In this document: positions 10,661-62,356 of the stretch, in pieces
How positions within the stretch are numbered: position 1 is the stretch's first letter
How the letters are laid out: every line of letters begins with the position of its first letter
NCBI GenBank assembly: GCA_041666485.1
Contig: JBAYGW010000003.1
Coordinates: forward strand, 16,415-80,414
Source of the DNA: Patescibacteria group bacterium
GTDB lineage: Bacteria; Patescibacteriota; Patescibacteriia; UM-FILTER-42-10
Direction of reading: 5' to 3'
DNA: 64,000 nt
The notes under the pieces: model-generated
What the model was told of the DNA's origin: nothing
Databases searched by the model: none
Seen by the model: the letters and a program-made list of their open reading frames with translations, nothing else
Position numbers and translations under genes: made by a program

Positions 10661-10760
10661 AAATGTACTCGTGGAGTTACGCACGCCACGGGTTCGGTTG
10701 ACCTGCGATCTTCTCCGTCTGAGTAGTCAATGCCCACGACTCAAAATGAGGAGATCTCGC

Positions 10761-11126
10761 ATGTGCGACAAGACCCAATGGAACGCGGGGCACGTCCTCG
10801 TCGTCCAGACCGTGTTCCCGACCGACAGCGAATCCCCCGGCGGTTTCTCGCGCAGCGTCATGTTGTGCACCTGTGGGAGCTGCCTGAGCTCCAACAACCC
10901 GATGACGCCCGCAGGGCCCCTGCACAGCTACCTGAAACGGTGCTTTGAGCAGGACGCTGCTGATGCGGTGGCGGGGGGCCTTGAGCCGCCCGTCAACCTC
11001 CTGAGCATGCCGAAGCTTGACCCGCGCACCGGCGCCGAGAAGCCGACCAAGAAGCAGGCAGCCATGCTGATCAAGCAGATCGGTCCGGACGCCTTCGCTT
11101 CCGACATCGTCGCGGCCTACGCCTAG
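10761..11126 (+). CDS. hypothetical Cys-containing protein in GC-rich island
   Basis: AGGAG RBS 7 nt upstream of ATG; strong GC3 bias; followed by clean terminator. Confidence 0.45.
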   Translation: MCDKTQWNAGHVLVVQTVFPTDSESPGGFSRSVMLCTCGSCLSSNNPMTPAGPLHSYLKRCFEQDAADAVAGGLEPPVNLLSMPKLDPRTGAEKPTKKQAAMLIKQIGPDAFASDIVAAYA

Positions 11127-11158
11127 CGTAGGAGAAGAAGTACATCGTTGAAGGACAT

Positions 11159-22907: not shown

Positions 22908-24497
22908 CTAGTGCCAGAACATCCGGCGATCGGTAAAGAGCATCGCGATGCCCAGTTTGTCCGCGGACCTGATTGAATCCTGGTCGCGAATTGAACCGCC
23001 CTGCTGGACGATCGTCTTGACGCCGAACGTGTCCGCCAGGCGCACGCAGTCGTCAAACGGGAAGAAGCTGTCGGACACCAGCACAGCATGGTGCAGATCC
23101 ATATTCTGCGCCTCCATGTTGTTCATGGCCTGCTCCAGAGCAAGCCGTGCCGACTTGATCCGGCTGGTCTGGCCGTTGCCGATGCCGATCGTCTGCCCGT
23201 TCCAGACCACGATGACCGAGTTGGACTTGACGTGCTTTGACACATTGCAGCCGAAACTGATATCCGACCAGTAGCGGTCCTTGACACCGAGCTTGGTGAC
23301 GCACCGGAACGACCTGCAGTCAAACAGCTCGGTGTCCATCAGCTGGACCACCATGCCGCCGGTCACCGGCTTGAAGTTCAGCGTGCCGAACGGCATGCTG
23401 CAGGAAAGCTCCCCACCCAGTTTGAACAGCGGGGTCTCTGCCCTGGCGCGCTTCTTGGTGATGTGTTCCATCGCCTCCGGCGAAAAATCCAGCGCGACGA
23501 TCGCGTCCACCTTCTGCACGCAGATGGTTTCAGCGACTTCCTCCGTCACCTGGAAGTTGAGTACCACCACCCCGCCGAAAGCCGATTCCGGATCGCACGC
23601 CAGTGCGTTCTGGAAAGCCTTCAGCGGACTGAAGCTGTCCATCGCCACTCCGCACGGCGTACCATGCTTGATGATCGCGACTGCGAATTCCGGGGACAGG
23701 TCGCGGACCGTCTCAATGCCGGCATTGATATCCAGCACAGTGGTGGCCGAGAGCGGCTTGCCCCAGATCTGCTTGGCGTTTGCCGCGGTGTAGCAGTTCA
23801 GACCCGGCAGTTCGTAGAACGCACCCGGCTGATGCGGATTCTCACCGTAGCGCAGATCACACTTCTTCTGCAGACGCTGAACCATCCGATCCGGGAAGCT
23901 GGGGAACTCAAGGCGTTCAGCCAGCCAGTCGGAGATCGTGGCGTCATACCACGCAGTGTGAAGAAACGCCTTGTAAGCCAGTTGCAGACGTTCCAGCGCG
24001 TTGAACCCGACATCTTCCGAAAGACACCGAATCACAAAGCCGTACTGCTCTGGTGAAGTGACCACCAGCACATGGCTGTGATTCTTCGCGGCCGCGCGGA
24101 TCAGTGCCACGCCGCCGATATCAATCTGCTCAATCGCGTCCCGAAATGCCACGGTCCGATCAGCCACCGTCTCTTCAAACGGATACAGGTTGACCACGAC
24201 CATGTCAAACGGGTAGATGCTGTGATCAAACAGCTCCTGCATGTGCGCGTCGCTGTCCTGATCCGCCAGGATCCCGCCGTGGATCTTCGGATGCAGAGTC
24301 TTCACCCTGCCACCCAGAATTTCCGGGAAACCGGTCACCTCCTCTACCGTTCGCACGGGAATTCCGGCTTCCACCAGGTGTCTGGACGTTCCGCCGGAAG
24401 ATACAATCTCCCAGCCATGTTCAAACAGCACGGTGGCAAGCTCAACAATGCCGCGCTTGTCGGACACGCTGATCAGAGCGCGCTGATTTGCTCGCAT
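22908..24497 (-). CDS. purH: bifunctional AICAR transformylase / IMP cyclohydrolase
   Basis: ALISVSDKRGIVELA (MGS domain), GGTSRHLVEAGIPV, KTLHPKIHGGIL; AAAGGAG RBS at chosen start; gene conspicuously GC-rich. Confidence 0.9.
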   Translation of the reverse strand: MRANQRALISVSDKRGIVELATVLFEHGWEIVSSGGTSRHLVEAGIPVRTVEEVTGFPEILGGRVKTLHPKIHGGILADQDSDAHMQELFDHSIYPFDMVVVNLYPFEETVADRTVAFRDAIEQIDIGGVALIRAAAKNHSHVLVVTSPEQYGFVIRCLSEDVGFNALERLQLAYKAFLHTAWYDATISDWLAERLEFPSFPDRMVQRLQKKCDLRYGENPHQPGAFYELPGLNCYTAANAKQIWGKPLSATTVLDINAGIETVRDLSPEFAVAIIKHGTPCGVAMDSFSPLKAFQNALACDPESAFGGVVVLNFQVTEEVAETICVQKVDAIVALDFSPEAMEHITKKRARAETPLFKLGGELSCSMPFGTLNFKPVTGGMVVQLMDTELFDCRSFRCVTKLGVKDRYWSDISFGCNVSKHVKSNSVIVVWNGQTIGIGNGQTSRIKSARLALEQAMNNMEAQNMDLHHAVLVSDSFFPFDDCVRLADTFGVKTIVQQGGSIRDQDSIRSADKLGIAMLFTDRRMFWH

Positions 24498-24589
24498 TTC
24501 TGCTCCTTTCGTGGCAAACCGTGAAGCTTTCACCGCAAACAACCGTTTGGGAAACGGTTTTTTAACTTATCACTCCGACTGACGCAAGT

Positions 24590-55653: not shown

Positions 55654-55810
55654 ACCGTCTTATTGTACCAAATATCAATGTTTCTGGCGACTTGTCATTA
55701 CAGTCACGTAGCAACCCTGACTTGCCAGAGTAAATGAAATATGGTAAAAACAAAACTGTGCCCATCTTCAGGGCGCAAATGACCAAAACCCGTTTTTGGG
55801 AGGTATTGGT

Positions 55811-56923
55811 ATGGACCAACGATTTGTCGATCTGGCGAGAGTCATGGTCGGCCATTCCACAAGGGTCTCAAAGGACGATATCGTCATCGTCAAGAGCACG
55901 GAGGTAGTGCCGCCCGACATGATCTTCGCGGTGATCCAGACCGTGCGCGAAGCGGGGGGCTCCGTGATCCCCTGGCGCTACGATCCGCGCATTGACTTCG
56001 AGGCATTCAGGGGTGGCACCGCTCACCAGCTGCGTGCCTGGGGCGCCGGCCAGTTTACCCAACTGGCTGCCGCCAACTGCTTCATTGAGTTCCGGCCGTT
56101 CAGTAACCAGCTCGACGGCAACGACGTGCCGGCAGCGGACATGCAGCGCCACGGCGAGGTGTTCGTTCCGCTGACGGTTGAACAGCGCGTGGAACGCACC
56201 CGCTGGGTGCTGACCCGCTGGCCGACGCCGGCCAACGCCCAGTTGGCCGGGATGTCCACGACGCAGTTCGAAGAGTTCTTCTTCAAGGCATGCCTCGCCG
56301 ACTACGGCGCCATGGCCAAGGCCGTGAAGCCGCTCGTCGCCCTGATGGAGCGGACCGACCAGGTCCAGATCCAAGGGCCGGGCGACACCGATCTCACTTT
56401 CAGCATCAAGGGAATTCCGATCATCGCCTGTACCGGATCGCACAACATCCCCGACGGCGAAGTGTTCACGGCGCCGGTTCGCGATTCCATGAACGGCGTG
56501 ATCGCCTACAACACCCCCACGGTCAACTCCCGCGGCCAGCGGTTCACCAATCTCCGCTTCGTGGTCAAGGCGGGCAAGATCGTGGAGGCGACCTGCGAGA
56601 CGGGTGACCAGACGGCGCTGGACGCCTTCCTGGACACCGACGAGGGTGCCCGCTACTTCGGCGAATTCGCCCTCGGCATCAACAACTTCGTCACGGGTGT
56701 GATCGGCGAAACGCTGTTCGACGAGAAGGTCGGTGGAAGCCTCCACTTGACGCCCGGCCGGTGCTATGAGCAAGCGCCGAACGGGAACCAGTCGGCCAAC
56801 CACTGGGACATCGTCTGCGATCAGCGCGGGGCTTCCGGTGGTGGGGAGATCTACTTCGACGGCAAGCTGGTCCGCAGCAAAGGGCTTTTCATCCCGAAGA
56901 GCCTCCACGCGCTCAATCCCTGA
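55811..56923 (+). CDS. M29-family aminopeptidase (aminopeptidase T/AmpS-like), GC-rich
   Basis: NIPDGEVFTAP, LDTDEGARYFGEFALG match Thermus aminopeptidase T; GGGAGG RBS; antisense 364-aa ORF has no motifs. Confidence 0.8.
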   Translation: MDQRFVDLARVMVGHSTRVSKDDIVIVKSTEVVPPDMIFAVIQTVREAGGSVIPWRYDPRIDFEAFRGGTAHQLRAWGAGQFTQLAAANCFIEFRPFSNQLDGNDVPAADMQRHGEVFVPLTVEQRVERTRWVLTRWPTPANAQLAGMSTTQFEEFFFKACLADYGAMAKAVKPLVALMERTDQVQIQGPGDTDLTFSIKGIPIIACTGSHNIPDGEVFTAPVRDSMNGVIAYNTPTVNSRGQRFTNLRFVVKAGKIVEATCETGDQTALDAFLDTDEGARYFGEFALGINNFVTGVIGETLFDEKVGGSLHLTPGRCYEQAPNGNQSANHWDIVCDQRGASGGGEIYFDGKLVRSKGLFIPKSLHALNP

Positions 56924-59861: not shown

Positions 59862-60141
59862 AAAGTAATTGTAACGCGCATATATTCTAGGTCAAGGTGC
59901 CTGTATAACTACTGCCCGTTCGAATCCCAATAATTACAAATGTCTTAATTCATTATTTATCCTGAGCACAACAGGAGCGCACAAGGCATAGATTTGACAA
60001 GTCTAGCTAGTCCTCGCCGAGACAGAAAAAAGTGGGGCCCCCGACCCGCTTTTGGCGGGTTGGGGAAAGGGGCACAGACCCGCAACCTAAAACAACCAAG
60101 CTTGCTTGGTTGTGACAGGTGAAGGGTCTGATGACCCGTGG

Positions 60142-60212
60142 CTGGGGAGGAGGGATTCGAACCCCCGGTGACGGGACCAGAACCCGTTGCCTTACCGCTT
60201 GGCTACTCCCCA
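60142..60212 (-). tRNA. tRNA-Gln (anticodon CUG)
   Basis: Hand-folded cloverleaf: U1-A72 acceptor TGGGGAG/CTCCCCA, D-loop AGCGGTAA, anticodon stem ACGGG/CCCGT with loop TTCTGGT, T-loop TTCGAAT; close to E. coli tRNA-Gln. Confidence 0.85.
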
Positions 60213-60221
60213 ATGTTTAGA

Positions 60222-60488
60222 TTAATTTTTATTTTTGATTTCTTCTATGTCTTTCAGTTTTTCATCAAGTAATTTTCTACCTTGACCGGATTTTAAAAAC
60301 TTTTCTCTTTTCATTGCCTCAGATCTACTATTAAAATCTTCCTTATAAATCAATACCCACGGTGATCGTCCCTTAGTATATCTACACTTGCCGCTATTGT
60401 GTTCTTCTAATCTTTTCTCAACATTATCAGTGCTACCAACGTACCTATTCTGGTAATTTATACTTTTTATTACGTAAATTGAATACAT
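60222..60488 (-). CDS. GIY-YIG nuclease family protein (YhbQ-like, ~89 aa)
   Basis: YSIYVIKS…RYVGSTDNVEKRLEEHNSG GIY…YIG…R..E..N motifs; start at internal Met of longer ORF. Confidence 0.7.
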   Translation of the reverse strand: MYSIYVIKSINYQNRYVGSTDNVEKRLEEHNSGKCRYTKGRSPWVLIYKEDFNSRSEAMKREKFLKSGQGRKLLDEKLKDIEEIKNKN

Positions 60489-60564
60489 TGTATTTTTATG
60501 ATTCCTCGCCGGAGGCGAGTGCGCTCGCCTCGCTTTCGCGAGAGCGAAGCGGGCCTCAGGCGCA

Positions 60565-60650
60565 GAACCCCCGGTGACGGGACCAGAACCCGTTGCCTTA
60601 TCCGCCTCGGCTCGACGCCTCGTCGAGACGGGCCGCTTGGCTACTCCCCA
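60565..60650 (-). pseudogene. truncated tRNA-Gln copy (nt 1-56) with 32-nt palindromic insertion in D-loop; no T-arm/3' acceptor
   Basis: 54 nt identical to intact tRNA-Gln split by insert tccgcctcggCTCGACGcctCGTCGAGacggg; diverges after T-loop C56. Confidence 0.5.
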
Positions 60651-60706
60651 ATGTTTTATTTCAAAAAAATAATTCGCCATATATCGCATGGCGATAACAT
60701 TCTTAT

Positions 60707-62356
60707 CTAACCTTCTACCACTTTCCCGCCGAAGGTGTCAAGTGCATCCTTCAGCGCACTACTGTCTTCCTCTTTTTTATTGTGTTCCGGTATCTTTTTA
60801 TCTCGCAACGCATTATCAATAATACAGGTGAAGGTCAGGGGCGTTTCATATACTTCATCCAGTACATTTTCAATTATCTGTTTGTTCTTTGCTTCCCAGA
60901 CCCGGTCCATATAAAATTTAAACCCGAAAGCAATTGTAATAACCTTGCCGTTAATCTCCAATACTTCCCCGACACTTAAGGTAAGTGATAAAGAATGATT
61001 ATGTGCTTTTAGCTTTTTTAAAAAAGTTTTCCATTTTTTTTCAATCTCTGACAGCTTAACAACCGGCGTCTCTTTTACCAATTCATCTGTTTCATCAACC
61101 GCCTTCTTTTCAGCTAGAACTGGCCTAATTACCTCTTTTACTATCTTATGTACTTGAGCAATTGGTCTTACTTCGGGAATATTTCTTCTGTTTGGTGGTT
61201 GAAATTTAGGAGTAAAAGACGGTTGATTCTTTGTAACCGGCTGTGTTATTTCATTCCCGCCCTCAATAATTTCCAAAATTGCAATTTCCAGCGGGAGTTG
61301 GATTATATCCTTTTGCGCTTTGATCATCGGTTCAATTTTAAGAAAAATATTGATCCACCGGATCAGTTCCTGTGAATTGAATTGATTTGAAATTTTAATC
61401 ATTTCTTTCTGCAGTTCATCATCCATTTCATACACAACAAACTTCTCCAATGAACTTGATATATTAAGCAGCATGATTCTTCTTAACACTTCAATCACAT
61501 TTTTAACAAAATTCCTGACATTTCCACCCTCTTCTACCAACCTGTTGACCAGCTCAATAGATGCGGCGGTATTTTCCATCGCAATCAGGCTCAAAAACTG
61601 AATCACTAGTGTATCATCAGAATGCGGAACGATCAGATCAATGTGATCCATTGTAACTTTTTTCTCTCCGAGTGAAAGCACCTGACCCAACATGCTCTCG
61701 GCGTCCCGTACACTACCGTCAGAAGCCATAGCAATTGCCTTCAAGACCGGCTCATCAACCTGCACTTTTTCCTGACTAATAATAGTGTTCAACCGGAGCA
61801 CCAGATCTTTTACTCCCACTTTCTGAAAATCAAAACGCTGACAGCGGGATATAATAGTCTGCGGCACCTTATGTACCTCGGTTGTCGCAAGGATAAACAC
61901 AACATTTTCCGGCGGTTCTTCCAGTGTTTTCAGCAAAGCATTGAACGCGGATATTGAAAGCATGTGGACTTCATCTATTATGAATACTTTGTAGGTGCTG
62001 GATACCGTTGCCACACGCGAATTGTCAATTATATTTTGTCTTACATTATCCACTCCCGTATGAGAAGCAGCATCAATCTCAACCAAATCCAATAATCTTC
62101 CCTTCATAATATCTTTGCAGGAGCTGCATTCATTACAGGGTTCTGCAGAATCTTTTTTTCTTTTCTTACAGTTAAGAGATTTTGCAAAAAGACGGGCAAT
62201 GGTTGTCTTGCCGACACCCCGCGGACCGGTAAACAAATATGCATGGGCGATTCTACCGCTTTCCAATTCATTTATCAGCGTAATTCTGATATGATTTTGA
62301 TCAACCAAATCCTTAAAAGACTGCGGCCGATATTTACGATATAGTGTCTGTGACAT
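60707..62356 (-). CDS. dnaX: DNA polymerase III subunit gamma/tau
   Basis: YRPQSF…AYLFTGPRGVGKTT Walker A, zinc module CxxC, SRC motif. Confidence 0.9.
   Translation of the reverse strand: MSQTLYRKYRPQSFKDLVDQNHIRITLINELESGRIAHAYLFTGPRGVGKTTIARLFAKSLNCKKRKKDSAEPCNECSSCKDIMKGRLLDLVEIDAASHTGVDNVRQNIIDNSRVATVSSTYKVFIIDEVHMLSISAFNALLKTLEEPPENVVFILATTEVHKVPQTIISRCQRFDFQKVGVKDLVLRLNTIISQEKVQVDEPVLKAIAMASDGSVRDAESMLGQVLSLGEKKVTMDHIDLIVPHSDDTLVIQFLSLIAMENTAASIELVNRLVEEGGNVRNFVKNVIEVLRRIMLLNISSSLEKFVVYEMDDELQKEMIKISNQFNSQELIRWINIFLKIEPMIKAQKDIIQLPLEIAILEIIEGGNEITQPVTKNQPSFTPKFQPPNRRNIPEVRPIAQVHKIVKEVIRPVLAEKKAVDETDELVKETPVVKLSEIEKKWKTFLKKLKAHNHSLSLTLSVGEVLEINGKVITIAFGFKFYMDRVWEAKNKQIIENVLDEVYETPLTFTCIIDNALRDKKIPEHNKKEEDSSALKDALDTFGGKVVEG

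What the first reader, a model, noticed from the sequence alone, without database searches (positions are those of the whole stretch)
60142..60650. tRNA-Gln locus with GIY-YIG nuclease gene between an intact tRNA and a truncated tRNA copy carrying a palindromic D-loop insertion
The intact tRNA-Gln(CUG) lies at 60142-60212 on the minus strand. About 350 bp upstream, 54 nt of the same tRNA (positions 1-56: acceptor 5' strand, D-arm, anticodon arm, variable loop, 5' half of the T-stem) recur. This copy is interrupted after G18 by a 32-nt insert containing a 7-bp hairpin (CTCGACG/CGTCGAG) and diverges into GC-rich hairpins (GAGGCGAG-TGCG-CTCGCCTC) exactly after T-loop C56. An 89-aa GIY-YIG (YhbQ-like) nuclease gene sits between the two copies. 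This looks like the scar of a homing or integration event in a tandem tRNA pair, or a GIY-YIG cassette that targets the tRNA T-loop.
Basis: seen in the sequence. Interest (0 to 1): 0.65.

Follow-up and report, generated by a model that had tools for sequence, protein, structure and literature searches.

The report
tRNA-splitting GIY-YIG hairpin cassette
The duplicated tRNA-Gln piece, the GC-rich hairpins and the small nuclease gene are one copy of a widespread and apparently undescribed selfish DNA cassette that sits in tRNA genes of ultra-small (CPR) bacteria and restores the tRNA it interrupts.

Summary
On the minus strand there is a 59-nt copy of tRNA-Gln(CUG), covering 54 nt up to T-loop C56 and then GAATC. 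It is broken by a 32-nt hairpin insert in the D-loop and a 60-nt insert in the T-loop. An 88-aa GIY-YIG gene follows, then the intact tRNA.

It is not a one-off scar. Among 82 loci encoding close relatives of the nuclease, 63 have a same-strand tRNA just downstream. These are Gln, Tyr, Ser, Lys, Phe or Ile, mostly in Patescibacteria. At least 38 carry an upstream copy of that same tRNA, 97.7% identical to it.

The copy is typically split at TTC^GAATCC by a 30-nt double-hairpin module. The module's stems covary almost only by Watson-Crick changes. It often recurs identically on the far side of the cassette, next to a displaced tRNA 3' end. The modules cluster at these loci.

Against the syntenic relative, the nuclease gene has dS 0.34, while flanking genes have 1.5-1.8. 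The protein is a bacterial Slx1/UPF0213-type minimal nuclease.

Best reading: a homing-like cassette that uses tRNA pieces as homology arms and restores an intact tRNA. The cleavage step and the role of the hairpins are inferred. I found no published description.

The parts
60674..60694 (-). Terminator-like hairpin of the upstream dnaX gene, which marks the upstream limit of the locus
   Evidence: stem-loop followed by a T-run. dnaX itself is at 60707-62356.
60651..60656 (-). 6-nt leader AAACAT, duplicated in front of both tRNA copies
   Evidence: Part of the exact 24-nt repeat D3.
60633..60650 (-). Upstream tRNA-Gln copy, positions 1-18 (acceptor 5' strand and D-arm 5' part)
   Evidence: Exact repeat of 60195-60212.
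60601..60632 (-). 32-nt GC-rich nested-hairpin module inserted in the D-loop (GCGG^...^TAAGG)
   Evidence: It is absent from the orthologous copy in L001. A module with the same outer ends sits at the same site in L027.
60565..60600 (-). Upstream tRNA-Gln copy, from the D-loop 3' part to T-loop C56
   Evidence: Exact 36-nt repeat of 60159-60194.
60505..60564 (-). 60-nt insert in the T-loop between TTC and GAATC. It is the family's 30-nt double-hairpin module (60555-60564 plus 60505-60524: TGCGCC-TGA-GGCGCA / CTCGCC-TCC-GGCGAG) with a second 30-nt hairpin module nested inside it (60525-60554).
   Evidence: Alignment to L001 shows an exact 30-nt extra block.
60500..60504 (-). GAATC, tRNA positions 57-61, resuming after the insert. 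This is the end of the tRNA-derived leader.
   Evidence: The same GAATCC follows the module in nearly all related loci.
60222..60488 (-). 88-aa stand-alone GIY-YIG nuclease gene (bacterial Slx1-like / UPF0213 type)
   Evidence: Pfam PF01541 at 4e-17. PDB 1ZG2 at 6.5e-11, 1YWL at 2.6e-10 and SLX1 at 1e-5. dN/dS 0.17 against L001. The mechanical 155-aa ORF 60222-60689 is an artefact that reads through the hairpins.
60213..60221 (-). 9-nt spacer TCTAAACAT between the stop codon and the intact tRNA
60139..60212 (-). Intact tRNA-Gln(CUG) with encoded CCA
   Evidence: ARAGORN. Rfam tRNA 60.8 bits.
60010..60138 (-). Conserved GC-rich structured region plus terminator directly after the tRNA. It travels with tRNA-Gln 3' ends in relatives and may belong to the mobile unit.
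   Evidence: Almost invariant across W, L001 and L090 (3 sequences: 5 variable columns in about 100; 2 between W and L001), although flanking genes have dS of about 1.5-1.8. In L090 it lies in another genomic context.
59912..59928 (-). Remnant (GGGATTCGAACGGGCAG on the minus strand) of the 5' end of a second, roughly 100-nt structured T-loop-inserted element. That element is seen complete in L001, L003, L090 and L034.
   Evidence: (I4).

Best explanation
The locus is one copy of a family of small selfish cassettes that live in tRNA genes.

A cassette has three kinds of component:
- a minimal (79-89 aa) Slx1/UPF0213-type GIY-YIG nuclease gene;
- an intact tRNA gene on the same strand;
- flanking pieces of that same tRNA, broken in the DNA that encodes the T-loop (GGTTC^GAATCC) by a 30-nt module of two GC-rich perfect hairpins.

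In the full form seen in relatives the order is: host tRNA 1-56 | module-GAATCC-leader-nuclease gene-complete tRNA-spacer-GGTTC-module | host tRNA 57-76.

The window holds the left half. That is the tRNA 1-56 copy, the module, the nuclease gene and the intact tRNA, which directly abuts the ancestral downstream sequence. The right junction was probably lost by recombination between the two 57-76 repeats.

Proposed mechanism (inferred, not shown):
1. The nuclease makes a break in or next to the tRNA gene. The likely sites are stem-loop or cruciform structures, or the palindromic TTCGAA core.
2. The break is repaired by recombination with a filled allele, with the tRNA pieces serving as homology arms. 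This is homing.
3. Because the cassette brings a whole tRNA or tRNA part, the host keeps a working tRNA and a displaced fragment is left behind.
4. The ORF is probably transcribed from the tRNA promoter. The downstream tRNA would then be released by normal processing.

The hairpin modules interrupt the T-loop sequence in the dead copies. They also accumulate, often nested, at the tips of the D-, anticodon- and T-loop-coding DNA. They are either the sites on which the nuclease acts or by-products of its breaks.
For: What is shown:
1. Recurrence. Of 82 loci with close relatives of the ORF, 63 have a same-strand tRNA within 160 nt downstream, usually 0-35 nt. These are Gln-CTG/TTG, Tyr, Ser, Lys, Phe and Ile. 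Nine more have the tRNA just upstream.
2. Upstream copy. At least 38 loci have an upstream copy of that same tRNA, 2250/2304 nt identical to it. The copy covaries with whichever tRNA is downstream.
3. Break point. The break lies at T-loop 56/57 with a 30-31-nt module in at least 25 of them. Further modules sit in the D-loop (13) and the anticodon loop (6).
4. Module structure. There are 41 distinct 30-mers. The two-hairpin pairing holds in 99% of cells, with 53 double-sided changes against 12.8 in shuffles (0/500) and only 2 G-U cells of 480. This fits DNA palindromes rather than an RNA motif.
5. Junction modules. The left and right junction modules of one locus are identical in 8 of 13 pairs (mean 1.0 mismatch). 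Between loci the mean is 6.6 mismatches.
6. Local clustering. Of 203 hairpin units, 129 lie within 400 nt upstream of the ORF and 62 within about 360 nt downstream of it. There are none elsewhere in the 64-kb window.
7. Displaced 3' fragments lie next to the cassette (L001, L018, L024, L025 and the Asn-type L014/L017/L023/L041). In L003 the displaced acceptor strand (TTCCGGA) cannot pair with the resident tRNA (TGGGGAG). The whole tRNA there was therefore replaced.
8. Turnover. L036 has an exact tandem 372-bp unit, L067 has three downstream pseudo-tRNA repeats, L044 has a truncated ORF, and some genomes carry two cassettes.
9. Recent exchange. Between W and L001 the ORF has dS 0.34 (13 of 48 synonymous sites). 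The flanking genes have dS 1.80, 1.57 and 1.46. Fisher p = 8e-8, and dN/dS is 0.17.
10. Recent module gain or loss. Two modules in W are absent at the orthologous positions of L001.
11. Protein family. It is the bacterial Slx1-like stand-alone GIY-YIG group. Eukaryotic Slx1 is a structure-specific endonuclease (PMC1564403).
Against: - No empty (cassette-free) allele of the dnaX-tRNA-Gln site was found. Only two relatives of this locus exist in the collections searched.
- Nuclease activity and target are untested.
- The protein has no DNA-binding domain, unlike characterised GIY-YIG homing enzymes.
- The intact tRNA inside the cassette still carries the presumed target GGTTCGAATCC. Simple 'target destroyed by insertion' immunity therefore does not hold.
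- The unit of mobility is ambiguous. Several configurations exist: ORF before or after the tRNA, and duplicated 5' or 3' parts.
- The origin of the hairpin modules is unexplained.
- The low dS could partly reflect constraints on the DNA itself.
- All comparison sequences are metagenome assemblies.
Confidence: 0.6

Rival explanations
1. One-off decay product. A tandem duplication of tRNA-Gln, or an old insertion, left a dying pseudogene that randomly picked up hairpin insertions. The GIY-YIG gene merely happens to lie between the two copies.
For: Seen alone, the window locus looks like a truncated duplicate. No empty-site allele was recovered.
Against: - The same ordered architecture occurs in dozens of independent genomes and at six kinds of tRNA.
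- The copy is 100% identical to the live tRNA over 59 nt, although synonymous sites of neighbouring genes are saturated between close relatives.
- The inserts belong to a conserved, covarying module family placed at the same tRNA positions elsewhere.
Confidence: 0.03
2. Host operon with a functional RNA leader. The tRNA-derived, hairpin-decorated 5' leader would be a regulatory or decoy RNA, for example a tRNA mimic controlling expression. The GIY-YIG protein would be a housekeeping factor acting on tRNA or RNA, co-transcribed with 'its' tRNA. The element would not be mobile.
For: - Strict same-strand order and tight spacing suggest co-transcription.
- The hairpins covary.
- The ORF is under purifying selection.
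- A fusion of a prokaryotic Slx1-like domain to a TrmH-like tRNA methyltransferase has been reported (PMC1564403).
Against: - Covariation is almost purely Watson-Crick, with 2 G-U cells of 480. The module is dyad-symmetric and occurs in both stem orders, as expected for DNA palindromes.
- Tandem arrays, truncated ORFs, displaced 3' fragments with foreign acceptor stems and several cassettes per genome are hallmarks of mobile DNA.
- The ORF's dS is about five times lower than that of its neighbours.
- The leader cannot fold as a tRNA.
- Module number and position differ between close relatives.
Confidence: 0.12
3. The hairpin modules are the primary mobile agents. They would be tiny palindromic elements, like mitochondrial GC clusters or double-hairpin elements, that insert at TTY^RAA or hairpin tips. 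The nuclease-tRNA unit would spread passively by recombination between modules, through circle excision and re-integration at module-bearing sites, rather than by endonuclease homing at intact tRNA genes.
For: - Modules are nested in one another and differ between W and L001.
- In L090 a module sits in the TTC^GAA of a different element.
- Identical modules flank full cassettes as direct repeats.
- L018 joins a tRNA-Thr-like 5' piece to a tRNA-Tyr cassette across a module.
Against: - Modules are not dispersed. None lies outside the cassette neighbourhood in the 64-kb window or in the flanks of 81 loci beyond about 800 nt.
- A naive genome has no module-bearing target, so first entry still needs another step.
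- This reading partly overlaps the main explanation rather than excluding it.
Confidence: 0.2
4. An intron, or a site-specific integrase island. Either a group I or archaeal-type intron in the tRNA, or the att duplication left by an integrated element.
For: tRNA genes are classic targets for both. The GIY-YIG ORF weakly matches a 'group I intron endonuclease' model (20 bits against a cut-off of 56).
Against: - No ribozyme or any Rfam family other than the tRNA is found.
- The downstream tRNA is complete on its own.
- There is no integrase or recombinase ORF, and the whole unit is only about 0.5 kb.
- The duplicated part here is the 5' part, not the 3' end.
Confidence: 0.02

Closest known systems
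Mobile endonuclease ORFs (mORFs) of fungal mitochondria that carry a replacement gene end (Allomyces macrogynus atp6; Glomus atp6, atp9, cox2, nad3; PMC3630166)
   Same: A free-standing homing-type endonuclease gene (GIY-YIG in atp9) is inserted in a host gene together with a copy of part of that gene. An intact gene is kept and the native fragment remains next to it as a displaced duplicate. The inserted part can be foreign, as with the L003 acceptor stem here.
   Different: The host gene here is a tRNA in bacterial chromosomes. A 5' part or a whole tRNA is supplied rather than a protein C-terminus. The nuclease is a minimal Slx1-like domain. The junctions carry a specific palindromic module.
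Phage T4 SegB, a GIY-YIG homing endonuclease located in the tRNA gene cluster (PMC2330249)
   Same: A free-standing GIY-YIG gene among tRNA genes that promotes inheritance of its own tRNA-gene region by cutting the related genome.
   Different: SegB belongs to the larger two-domain homing endonuclease group that includes I-TevI and I-BmoI (own knowledge; two-domain architecture of GIY-YIG homing enzymes per PMC3664794). It lies between genes in a phage and creates no tRNA partial duplications or hairpin modules. The family here is almost absent from viral contigs (2 weak relatives in 2.9 million).
GC-rich double-hairpin elements of Allomyces mtDNA and GC clusters of yeast mtDNA (Paquin et al. 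2000, cited in PMC3787672; PMC4478555)
   Same: Short GC-rich elements that fold into hairpins in an AT-rich genome, are apparently mobile, and insert into structural RNA genes.
   Different: Those elements are dispersed in many copies across the genome. The modules here are confined to the nuclease-tRNA cassettes and sit at the loop tips of tRNA-gene copies.
Non-intron insertion sequences encoding GIY-YIG proteins in rRNA genes of CPR bacteria (PMC11270868)
   Same: The same bacterial radiation. GIY-YIG ORFs sit in insertions within structural RNA genes that resemble neither group I nor group II introns.
   Different: Those interrupt rRNA, which tolerates fragmentation, and are described as sparse. 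tRNA-linked cassettes, target duplication and the hairpin modules are not described there.
Slx1 / bacterial UPF0213 (YhbQ-like) stand-alone GIY-YIG proteins (PDB 1ZG2, 1YWL; PMC1564403)
   Same: Sequence family of the ORF: a minimal GIY-YIG domain with no added DNA-binding domain.
   Different: Bacterial members have no established function. An association with tRNA genes or mobile cassettes is not reported in the sources I could search.

Membership tests
GIY-YIG nuclease superfamily, bacterial Slx1-like / UPF0213 stand-alone group | Match to the GIY-YIG domain model above the curated threshold | tested here: met
   PF01541, 62.7 bits against a cut-off of 22.6, E = 4e-17.
GIY-YIG nuclease superfamily, bacterial Slx1-like / UPF0213 stand-alone group | Closest solved relatives are UPF0213/SLX1, and the protein is a domain-only protein of about 80-100 aa | tested here: met
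   1ZG2 at 6.5e-11, 1YWL at 2.6e-10, SLX1 chains at 1e-5 to 1e-3. Length 79-89 aa in 25 aligned relatives with invariant Y16, G18, R26, E29, H30 and N31, and Y5 and E62 conserved in at least 90% of them.
GIY-YIG nuclease superfamily, bacterial Slx1-like / UPF0213 stand-alone group | Endonuclease activity | not testable with these tools
   Needs biochemistry.
Free-standing homing endonuclease gene (T4 Seg type) | Cleaves the cognate allele that lacks the gene, near the insertion site | not testable with these tools
   The target is inferred only from the junction position TTC^GAA.
Free-standing homing endonuclease gene (T4 Seg type) | Presence/absence polymorphism at one locus among relatives | tested here: inconclusive
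   Only two relatives of the dnaX-tRNA-Gln locus were found. L001 is filled. L090 holds only the right-hand remnant, in another context. No empty site was seen. Across genomes, the Thr-Tyr-Thr-Trp cluster carries the cassette in different positions.
Free-standing homing endonuclease gene (T4 Seg type) | Signs of horizontal spread independent of the host genome | tested here: met
   ORF dS 0.34 against 1.46-1.80 for three flanking genes, p = 8e-8. ORF relatives sit at different tRNAs. Foreign acceptor stem in L003.
Free-standing homing endonuclease gene (T4 Seg type) | Separate DNA-binding domain giving a long recognition site (I-TevI/I-BmoI type) | tested here: not met
   The protein is the catalytic domain only, 88 aa.
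Endonuclease mORF with replacement gene part (fungal mitochondrial type) | Endonuclease ORF plus a duplicate of part of the host gene, with an intact gene retained and a displaced fragment adjacent | tested here: met
   Window. Relatives with displaced 5' and 3' fragments.
Group I or other tRNA intron | Ribozyme core or splice motif, and a single tRNA split into two exons | tested here: not met
   No Rfam family except tRNA. The downstream tRNA is complete. The upstream copy lacks a 3' end.
Integrase-mediated island at a tRNA gene | Tyrosine or serine recombinase gene and a duplicated tRNA 3' end as att site | tested here: not met
   The only ORF between the copies is the 88-aa nuclease. In the window the 5' part is the duplicated one.
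Dispersed palindromic repeats (REP/MITE, mitochondrial GC clusters, double-hairpin elements) | Many copies scattered over the genome | tested here: not met
   No further double hairpins above shuffle expectation, and no SCGCC-N3-GGCGS unit elsewhere in 64 kb. Units are confined to the cassette neighbourhood in 81 loci.
Dispersed palindromic repeats (REP/MITE, mitochondrial GC clusters, double-hairpin elements) | Short GC-rich double hairpin in an AT-rich genome, with nested or variable insertion | tested here: met

The most novel reading that the evidence does not exclude
This is a previously unrecognised class of bacterial mobile element. It would be a roughly 0.4-0.6-kb cassette driven by a minimal Slx1-like structure-specific nuclease, with no DNA-binding domain, that recognises extruded hairpin, cruciform or cloverleaf DNA of tRNA genes rather than a long sequence. 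The cassette would be bounded by duplicated 30-bp double-hairpin palindromes. It would avoid harming the host by carrying a replacement tRNA. That would make it a vehicle for horizontal replacement of tRNA genes across CPR bacteria and some other phyla.
Probability: 0.4. Interest if true: 0.85.

Novelty: new variant of a known kind. Interest (0 to 1): 0.72.

Why it matters
If the reading holds, four things follow.

1. The widespread small bacterial Slx1/UPF0213 'GIY-YIG nuclease family proteins' have no established function. Here there are 8,596 cluster representatives at E <= 0.001. At least one large branch of them would gain a concrete biological context.

2. It would show a fourth way for a homing-type element to sit in an essential gene without killing the host. 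The known ways are self-splicing introns, inteins and intergenic placement. Supplying a replacement copy of the gene was previously documented for mitochondrial protein genes.

3. It would identify a driver of horizontal tRNA-gene replacement, of local rearrangement, and of assembly breaks and mis-called N-terminally extended ORFs in CPR genomes.

4. It would give a testable substrate set for a minimal structure-specific nuclease: defined 15-nt perfect hairpins at the loop tips of tRNA-gene DNA.

Tried and rejected
- Rfam searches of the region, the whole window and two related loci gave only the tRNA. There is therefore no known ribozyme, intron or sRNA family.
- ARAGORN and Rfam do not call the upstream copy a tRNA, even after the inserts are removed in silico. 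In 6 of 62 related junctions, removing the module gave a marginal tRNA call. This shows only that some upstream copies extend further into the 3' part.
- Exact-sequence look-up of the window protein found nothing.
- The metagenome scan with the conserved downstream sequence, meant to find empty sites, gave only two loci, one of which is L001's own contig.
- The alternative fold of the 30-nt module as one long hairpin is not supported. It scores below every shuffle.
- A genome-wide REP/MITE-like distribution of the modules is rejected for the 64-kb window.
- Carriage by phages is rejected. There are 8 weak hits (<45% identity) in 50,697 phage records and 2 weak relatives in the viral contigs. 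No tRNA was found in the two viral-contig loci, and the phage-record hits were not examined for tRNAs.
- Eight literature searches found no description of tRNA-linked GIY-YIG cassettes. The library lacks most subscription journals, so this is not proof of novelty.
- The neighbour-joining tree of the 80-aa ORFs is too poorly resolved to give more than partial clustering by tRNA type.
- No sigma-70-like promoter was detected in front of the upstream copy, so the transcription start remains unknown.
Full report
**1. What is in the window**

Read on the minus strand, the region downstream of dnaX (60707-62356) has the following order:
- the dnaX terminator-like hairpin (60674-60694);
- AAACAT plus tRNA-Gln positions 1-18 (60656-60633);
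- a 32-nt GC-rich nested hairpin (60632-60601);
- the tRNA sequence from the D-loop to T-loop C56 (60600-60565);
- a 60-nt GC-rich block (60564-60505);
- GAATC, which is tRNA 57-61 (60504-60500);
- an 11-nt A-rich leader;
- an 88-aa ORF (60488-60222);
- the 9-nt spacer TCTAAACAT;
- the intact tRNA-Gln(CUG) with CCA (60212-60139).

Two exact repeats of 36 and 24 nt link the copies. With the two inserts removed, 59 nt equal the live tRNA, but nothing is called a tRNA because the 3' T-stem and acceptor strand are missing. The ORF is a GIY-YIG domain (PF01541, E = 4e-17).

**2. The closest relative**

The best homologue of the ORF (88% identity) lies in a syntenic locus, L001, with dnaX upstream and rubrerythrin and a 2-hydroxyacid dehydrogenase downstream. 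L001 carries the same cassette with these differences:
- It has no D-loop insert in the 1-56 copy.
- Its T-loop insert is exactly 30 nt, TGCGCC-CGA-GGCGCA / CTCGCC-TCC-GGCGAG. The window has this same 30-mer with a further exact 30-nt block nested in it.
- It has an additional older 5' fragment (positions 1-21) with its own 34-nt insert.
- Downstream of its intact tRNA it has a spacer with a terminator, then a roughly 100-nt structured element, then an orphan tRNA-Gln 3' end (GAATCCCTCCTCCCCAACCA). That orphan end abuts the same conserved sequence that follows the intact tRNA in the window.

The ancestral tRNA-Gln was thus split in its T-loop, and the piece now between the halves carries a complete tRNA. 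In the window the right-hand junction is missing. Recombination between the two copies of positions 57-76 would produce exactly this state. That step is inference.

**3. A family, not an accident**

A scan of one genome per species with an alignment of ORF homologues confirmed at least 551 relatives, and 80 loci were kept. Together with the window, L001 and L003, this gives 82 loci:
- 63 have a same-strand tRNA within 160 nt downstream of the ORF, mostly 0-35 nt away. These are Gln-CTG/TTG, Tyr, Ser, Lys, Phe and Ile.
- Nine have the tRNA, mostly Asn, just upstream.
- Most of the rest are cut by a contig end or are the first of two tandem ORFs.
- In at least 38 loci the 100-200 nt before the ORF are a copy of that same downstream tRNA, 2250/2304 nt identical. 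The copy follows the tRNA's identity: CUG in the window, UUG with different stems in the Kerfeldbacteria locus L003, Tyr in L011, Ser in L044.

Hosts are mostly Patescibacteria. Some are Margulisiibacteriota, Ignavibacteria, Omnitrophota, WOR-1 and Bacteroidetes MAGs. The protein family is large, with 8,596 representatives at E <= 0.001 and 1,032 at E <= 1e-10. It is nearly absent from phage and viral collections.

**4. The hairpin modules**

In at least 25 loci the upstream copy is interrupted between T-loop C56 and position 57 (GGTTC^GAATCC) by a 30-31-nt module. The tRNA sequence then resumes with GAATCC for 5-13 nt before the ORF. I collected 41 distinct 30-mers from 55 instances.

The consensus is TGCGCC-AGA-GGCGCA followed by TCCGCC-TCT-GGCGGA. 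The inner GCC...GGC is invariant and the outer three pairs of each stem vary. The two-hairpin pairing holds in 99% of cells. There are 53 double-sided changes against 12.8 in shuffles (0/500), and only 2 G-U cells of 480. A single long hairpin is not supported.

Three features point to selection on DNA palindromes (hairpin or cruciform) rather than on an RNA motif:
- The covariation is purely Watson-Crick.
- The loops are dyad-symmetric: the first ends in A and the second starts with T.
- Both stem orders occur.

This conclusion is inference.

Related modules come as 30-32-nt double hairpins or as single hairpins of about 19 nt (CCCGCC-RRR-GGCGG-ACAGG). They sit in the D-loop (13 cases, often between G18 and G19) and in the anticodon loop (6 cases) of the upstream copies. 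They can be nested in one another. The window's D-loop module has the same outer ends and the same insertion site as one in L027, with a different inner hairpin.

The modules are local. Of 203 perfect 15-nt units in 226 kb of loci, 129 lie within 400 nt upstream of the ORF and 62 within about 360 nt downstream of it. None lies further than 800 nt upstream. The 64-kb window has none outside this locus.

**5. Cassette boundaries**

Several loci show a full form (L018 and L024 in full; L049, L053 and L071 to the extent their downstream sequence was read). Its order is: host tRNA 1-56 | module-GAATCC-leader-ORF-complete tRNA-spacer-GGTTC-module | host tRNA 57-76.

In the Asn-type loci the complete tRNA precedes the ORF, between the same two junctions (L014, L017, L023, L041). 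L025 has a seamless left side and duplicated 3' parts.

The two junction modules of one locus are identical in 8 of 13 pairs, with a mean of 1.0 mismatch. Modules of different loci differ by 6.6 mismatches on average. So the modules flank the cassette as direct repeats that were either made together or are kept alike.

In L003 the displaced 3' end has the acceptor strand TTCCGGA. It cannot pair with the resident tRNA's TGGGGAG, so the tRNA now in use came in with mobile DNA. L018 joins a tRNA-Thr-like 5' piece to a tRNA-Tyr cassette across a module.

Other signs of turnover:
- L036 has an exact 372-bp tandem unit.
- L067 has three downstream copies of pseudo-tRNA plus terminator.
- L044 has a truncated upstream ORF.
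- Four genomes in the sample carry two cassettes at different tRNAs.

A third relative of the window's locus, L090, retains only the module, the 100-nt element, the tRNA-Gln 3' end and the conserved downstream region. These lie in another genomic context between 29-nt direct repeats. There the module sits in the TTC^GAA of the 100-nt element's own 5' end.

**6. Evidence for function and mobility of the ORF**

Between the window and L001 the ORF has dN/dS 0.17, so it is maintained by selection. Its synonymous divergence is 0.34, from 13 differences at 48 sites. The flanking genes give 1.80 (dnaX), 1.57 (rubrerythrin) and 1.46 (a 216-aa gene). Fisher p is 8e-8. The cassette was therefore shared between the two lineages long after they split, at the same site, as homing through homologous flanks would give. 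An unusual constraint on the DNA could contribute but is unlikely to act over the whole ORF.

By sequence the protein belongs to the bacterial Slx1-like/UPF0213 stand-alone GIY-YIG group (1ZG2, 1YWL; SLX1). PMC1564403 describes this group as the minimal form of the domain, and eukaryotic Slx1 is a structure-specific endonuclease.

**7. Mechanism**

Shown: the architecture, its recurrence, the break point, the module structure, the local clustering, the displaced fragments, the concerted identity of the copies and the recent exchange.

Inferred:
- The nuclease makes breaks at the tRNA gene. The candidate sites are the palindromic TTCGAA core of the T-loop DNA, or the tips of extruded stem-loops, which would also explain modules at the tips of all three loops and inside other modules.
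- Repair with a filled allele uses the tRNA pieces as homology arms and copies the cassette.
- The cassette's own tRNA keeps the host viable.
- The ORF rides on the tRNA promoter. No promoter-like site was found in front of the upstream copy.
- Recombination among the repeats gives arrays, half-forms such as the window's, and deletions.

Unexplained:
- how the resident intact tRNA escapes cutting;
- how a domain-only protein finds its target;
- where the modules come from, whether as templated filler at breaks or as tiny elements mobilised in cis;
- what the exact mobile unit is.

**8. Comparison with known systems**

The logic of 'endonuclease ORF plus a replacement part of the host gene, with the native part displaced' matches the fungal mitochondrial mORFs (PMC3630166, including the Allomyces atp6 case). 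T4 SegB is a GIY-YIG homing enzyme inside a tRNA cluster (PMC2330249). GC-rich double-hairpin elements and GC clusters are mobile in AT-rich mitochondrial genomes (PMC3787672 citing Paquin 2000; PMC4478555). CPR rRNA genes hold GIY-YIG ORFs in non-intron insertions (PMC11270868).

None of these combines a tRNA target, a supplied tRNA, a minimal Slx1-like nuclease and junction palindromes. Eight full-text searches found no description of such cassettes. I therefore rate it a new variant of a known kind (homing-type selfish cassettes). There is a substantial chance that the mechanism is different enough to count as a new class.

**9. Caveats**

- The 80 loci are the best matches to this ORF, so the frequencies describe this branch of the family only.
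- All comparison sequences are metagenome assemblies. Repeats of this kind often break contigs, and many loci end at the cassette.
- The dS contrast rests on one genome pair and 48 synonymous sites.
- No empty site was recovered.
- No activity has been tested.

Noticed in passing
window 60010-60138 (minus strand); L001 3531-3665; L090 9933-10065: A GC-rich region of about 130 nt directly after tRNA-Gln folds as a long hairpin of about 70 nt plus a terminator hairpin. It is almost invariant across W, L001 and L090 (5 variable columns in about 100; 2 between W and L001), although flanking genes are saturated at synonymous sites. In L090 it lies in an unrelated genomic context. It has no Rfam match. 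It could be an unknown small RNA or part of a larger mobile unit.
   Followed up: partly
window 59912-59928 (remnant); L001 3404-3510, L003 2075-2170, L090 9781-9880, L034 1140-1240: A second element of about 100 nt begins GGATTC^GAACGGGCAG and ends ...CTGCCCAGGAC. It sits between a TTC and the GAATCC of displaced tRNA 3' ends. Its predicted three-helix structure has compensatory changes in 11 of 22 pairs among only 4 sequences. It has no Rfam match. The window keeps only its first 17 nt, just upstream of the PRTase-like gene's promoter-like site.
   Followed up: partly
window 55796-56923 (+): A 1.1-kb gene with 65-77% G+C lies in a 40.5% G+C window and encodes an M29 (aminopeptidase T-like) metalloprotease (PF02073, 7e-40). 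Its composition suggests recent acquisition from a high-GC donor.
   Followed up: partly
window 10753-11142 and 22978-24486: Further islands with more than 62% G+C. The second lies within a 544-aa minus-strand ORF at 22908-24542. Neither was examined.
   Followed up: no
window 60222-60689 (-); proteins P0013, P0086 and many representatives: Mechanical ORFs and database proteins of this family often carry 20-60 extra N-terminal residues that are translations of the GC hairpins and tRNA-derived leader. For example, 'VVGSNPT' in P0086 looks like the translation of a tRNA T-arm sequence (not checked against the encoding DNA). This is a systematic gene-calling artefact.
   Followed up: partly
L035, L039, L045, L020, L065, L082, L064, L070 (ORF 3' ends): In several relatives the last codons and the stop codon of the nuclease ORF are themselves a copy of the first 9-22 nt of the tRNA (for example ...GTCGTCTAA|TCCGGGGTCGTCTAATGG). 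The conserved U8-A9-G10 or the D-loop TAA serves as the stop. So a further short tRNA 5' fragment is fused to the ORF end directly before the intact tRNA.
   Followed up: no
L013, L019, L024, L070, L088 (second ORFs): A more distant GIY-YIG paralogue, 37-42% identical to the window protein, lies within a few hundred nt of the first ORF in these loci. In L013 it lies directly before tRNA-Trp. The tRNA association may therefore extend to other branches of the family.
   Followed up: no
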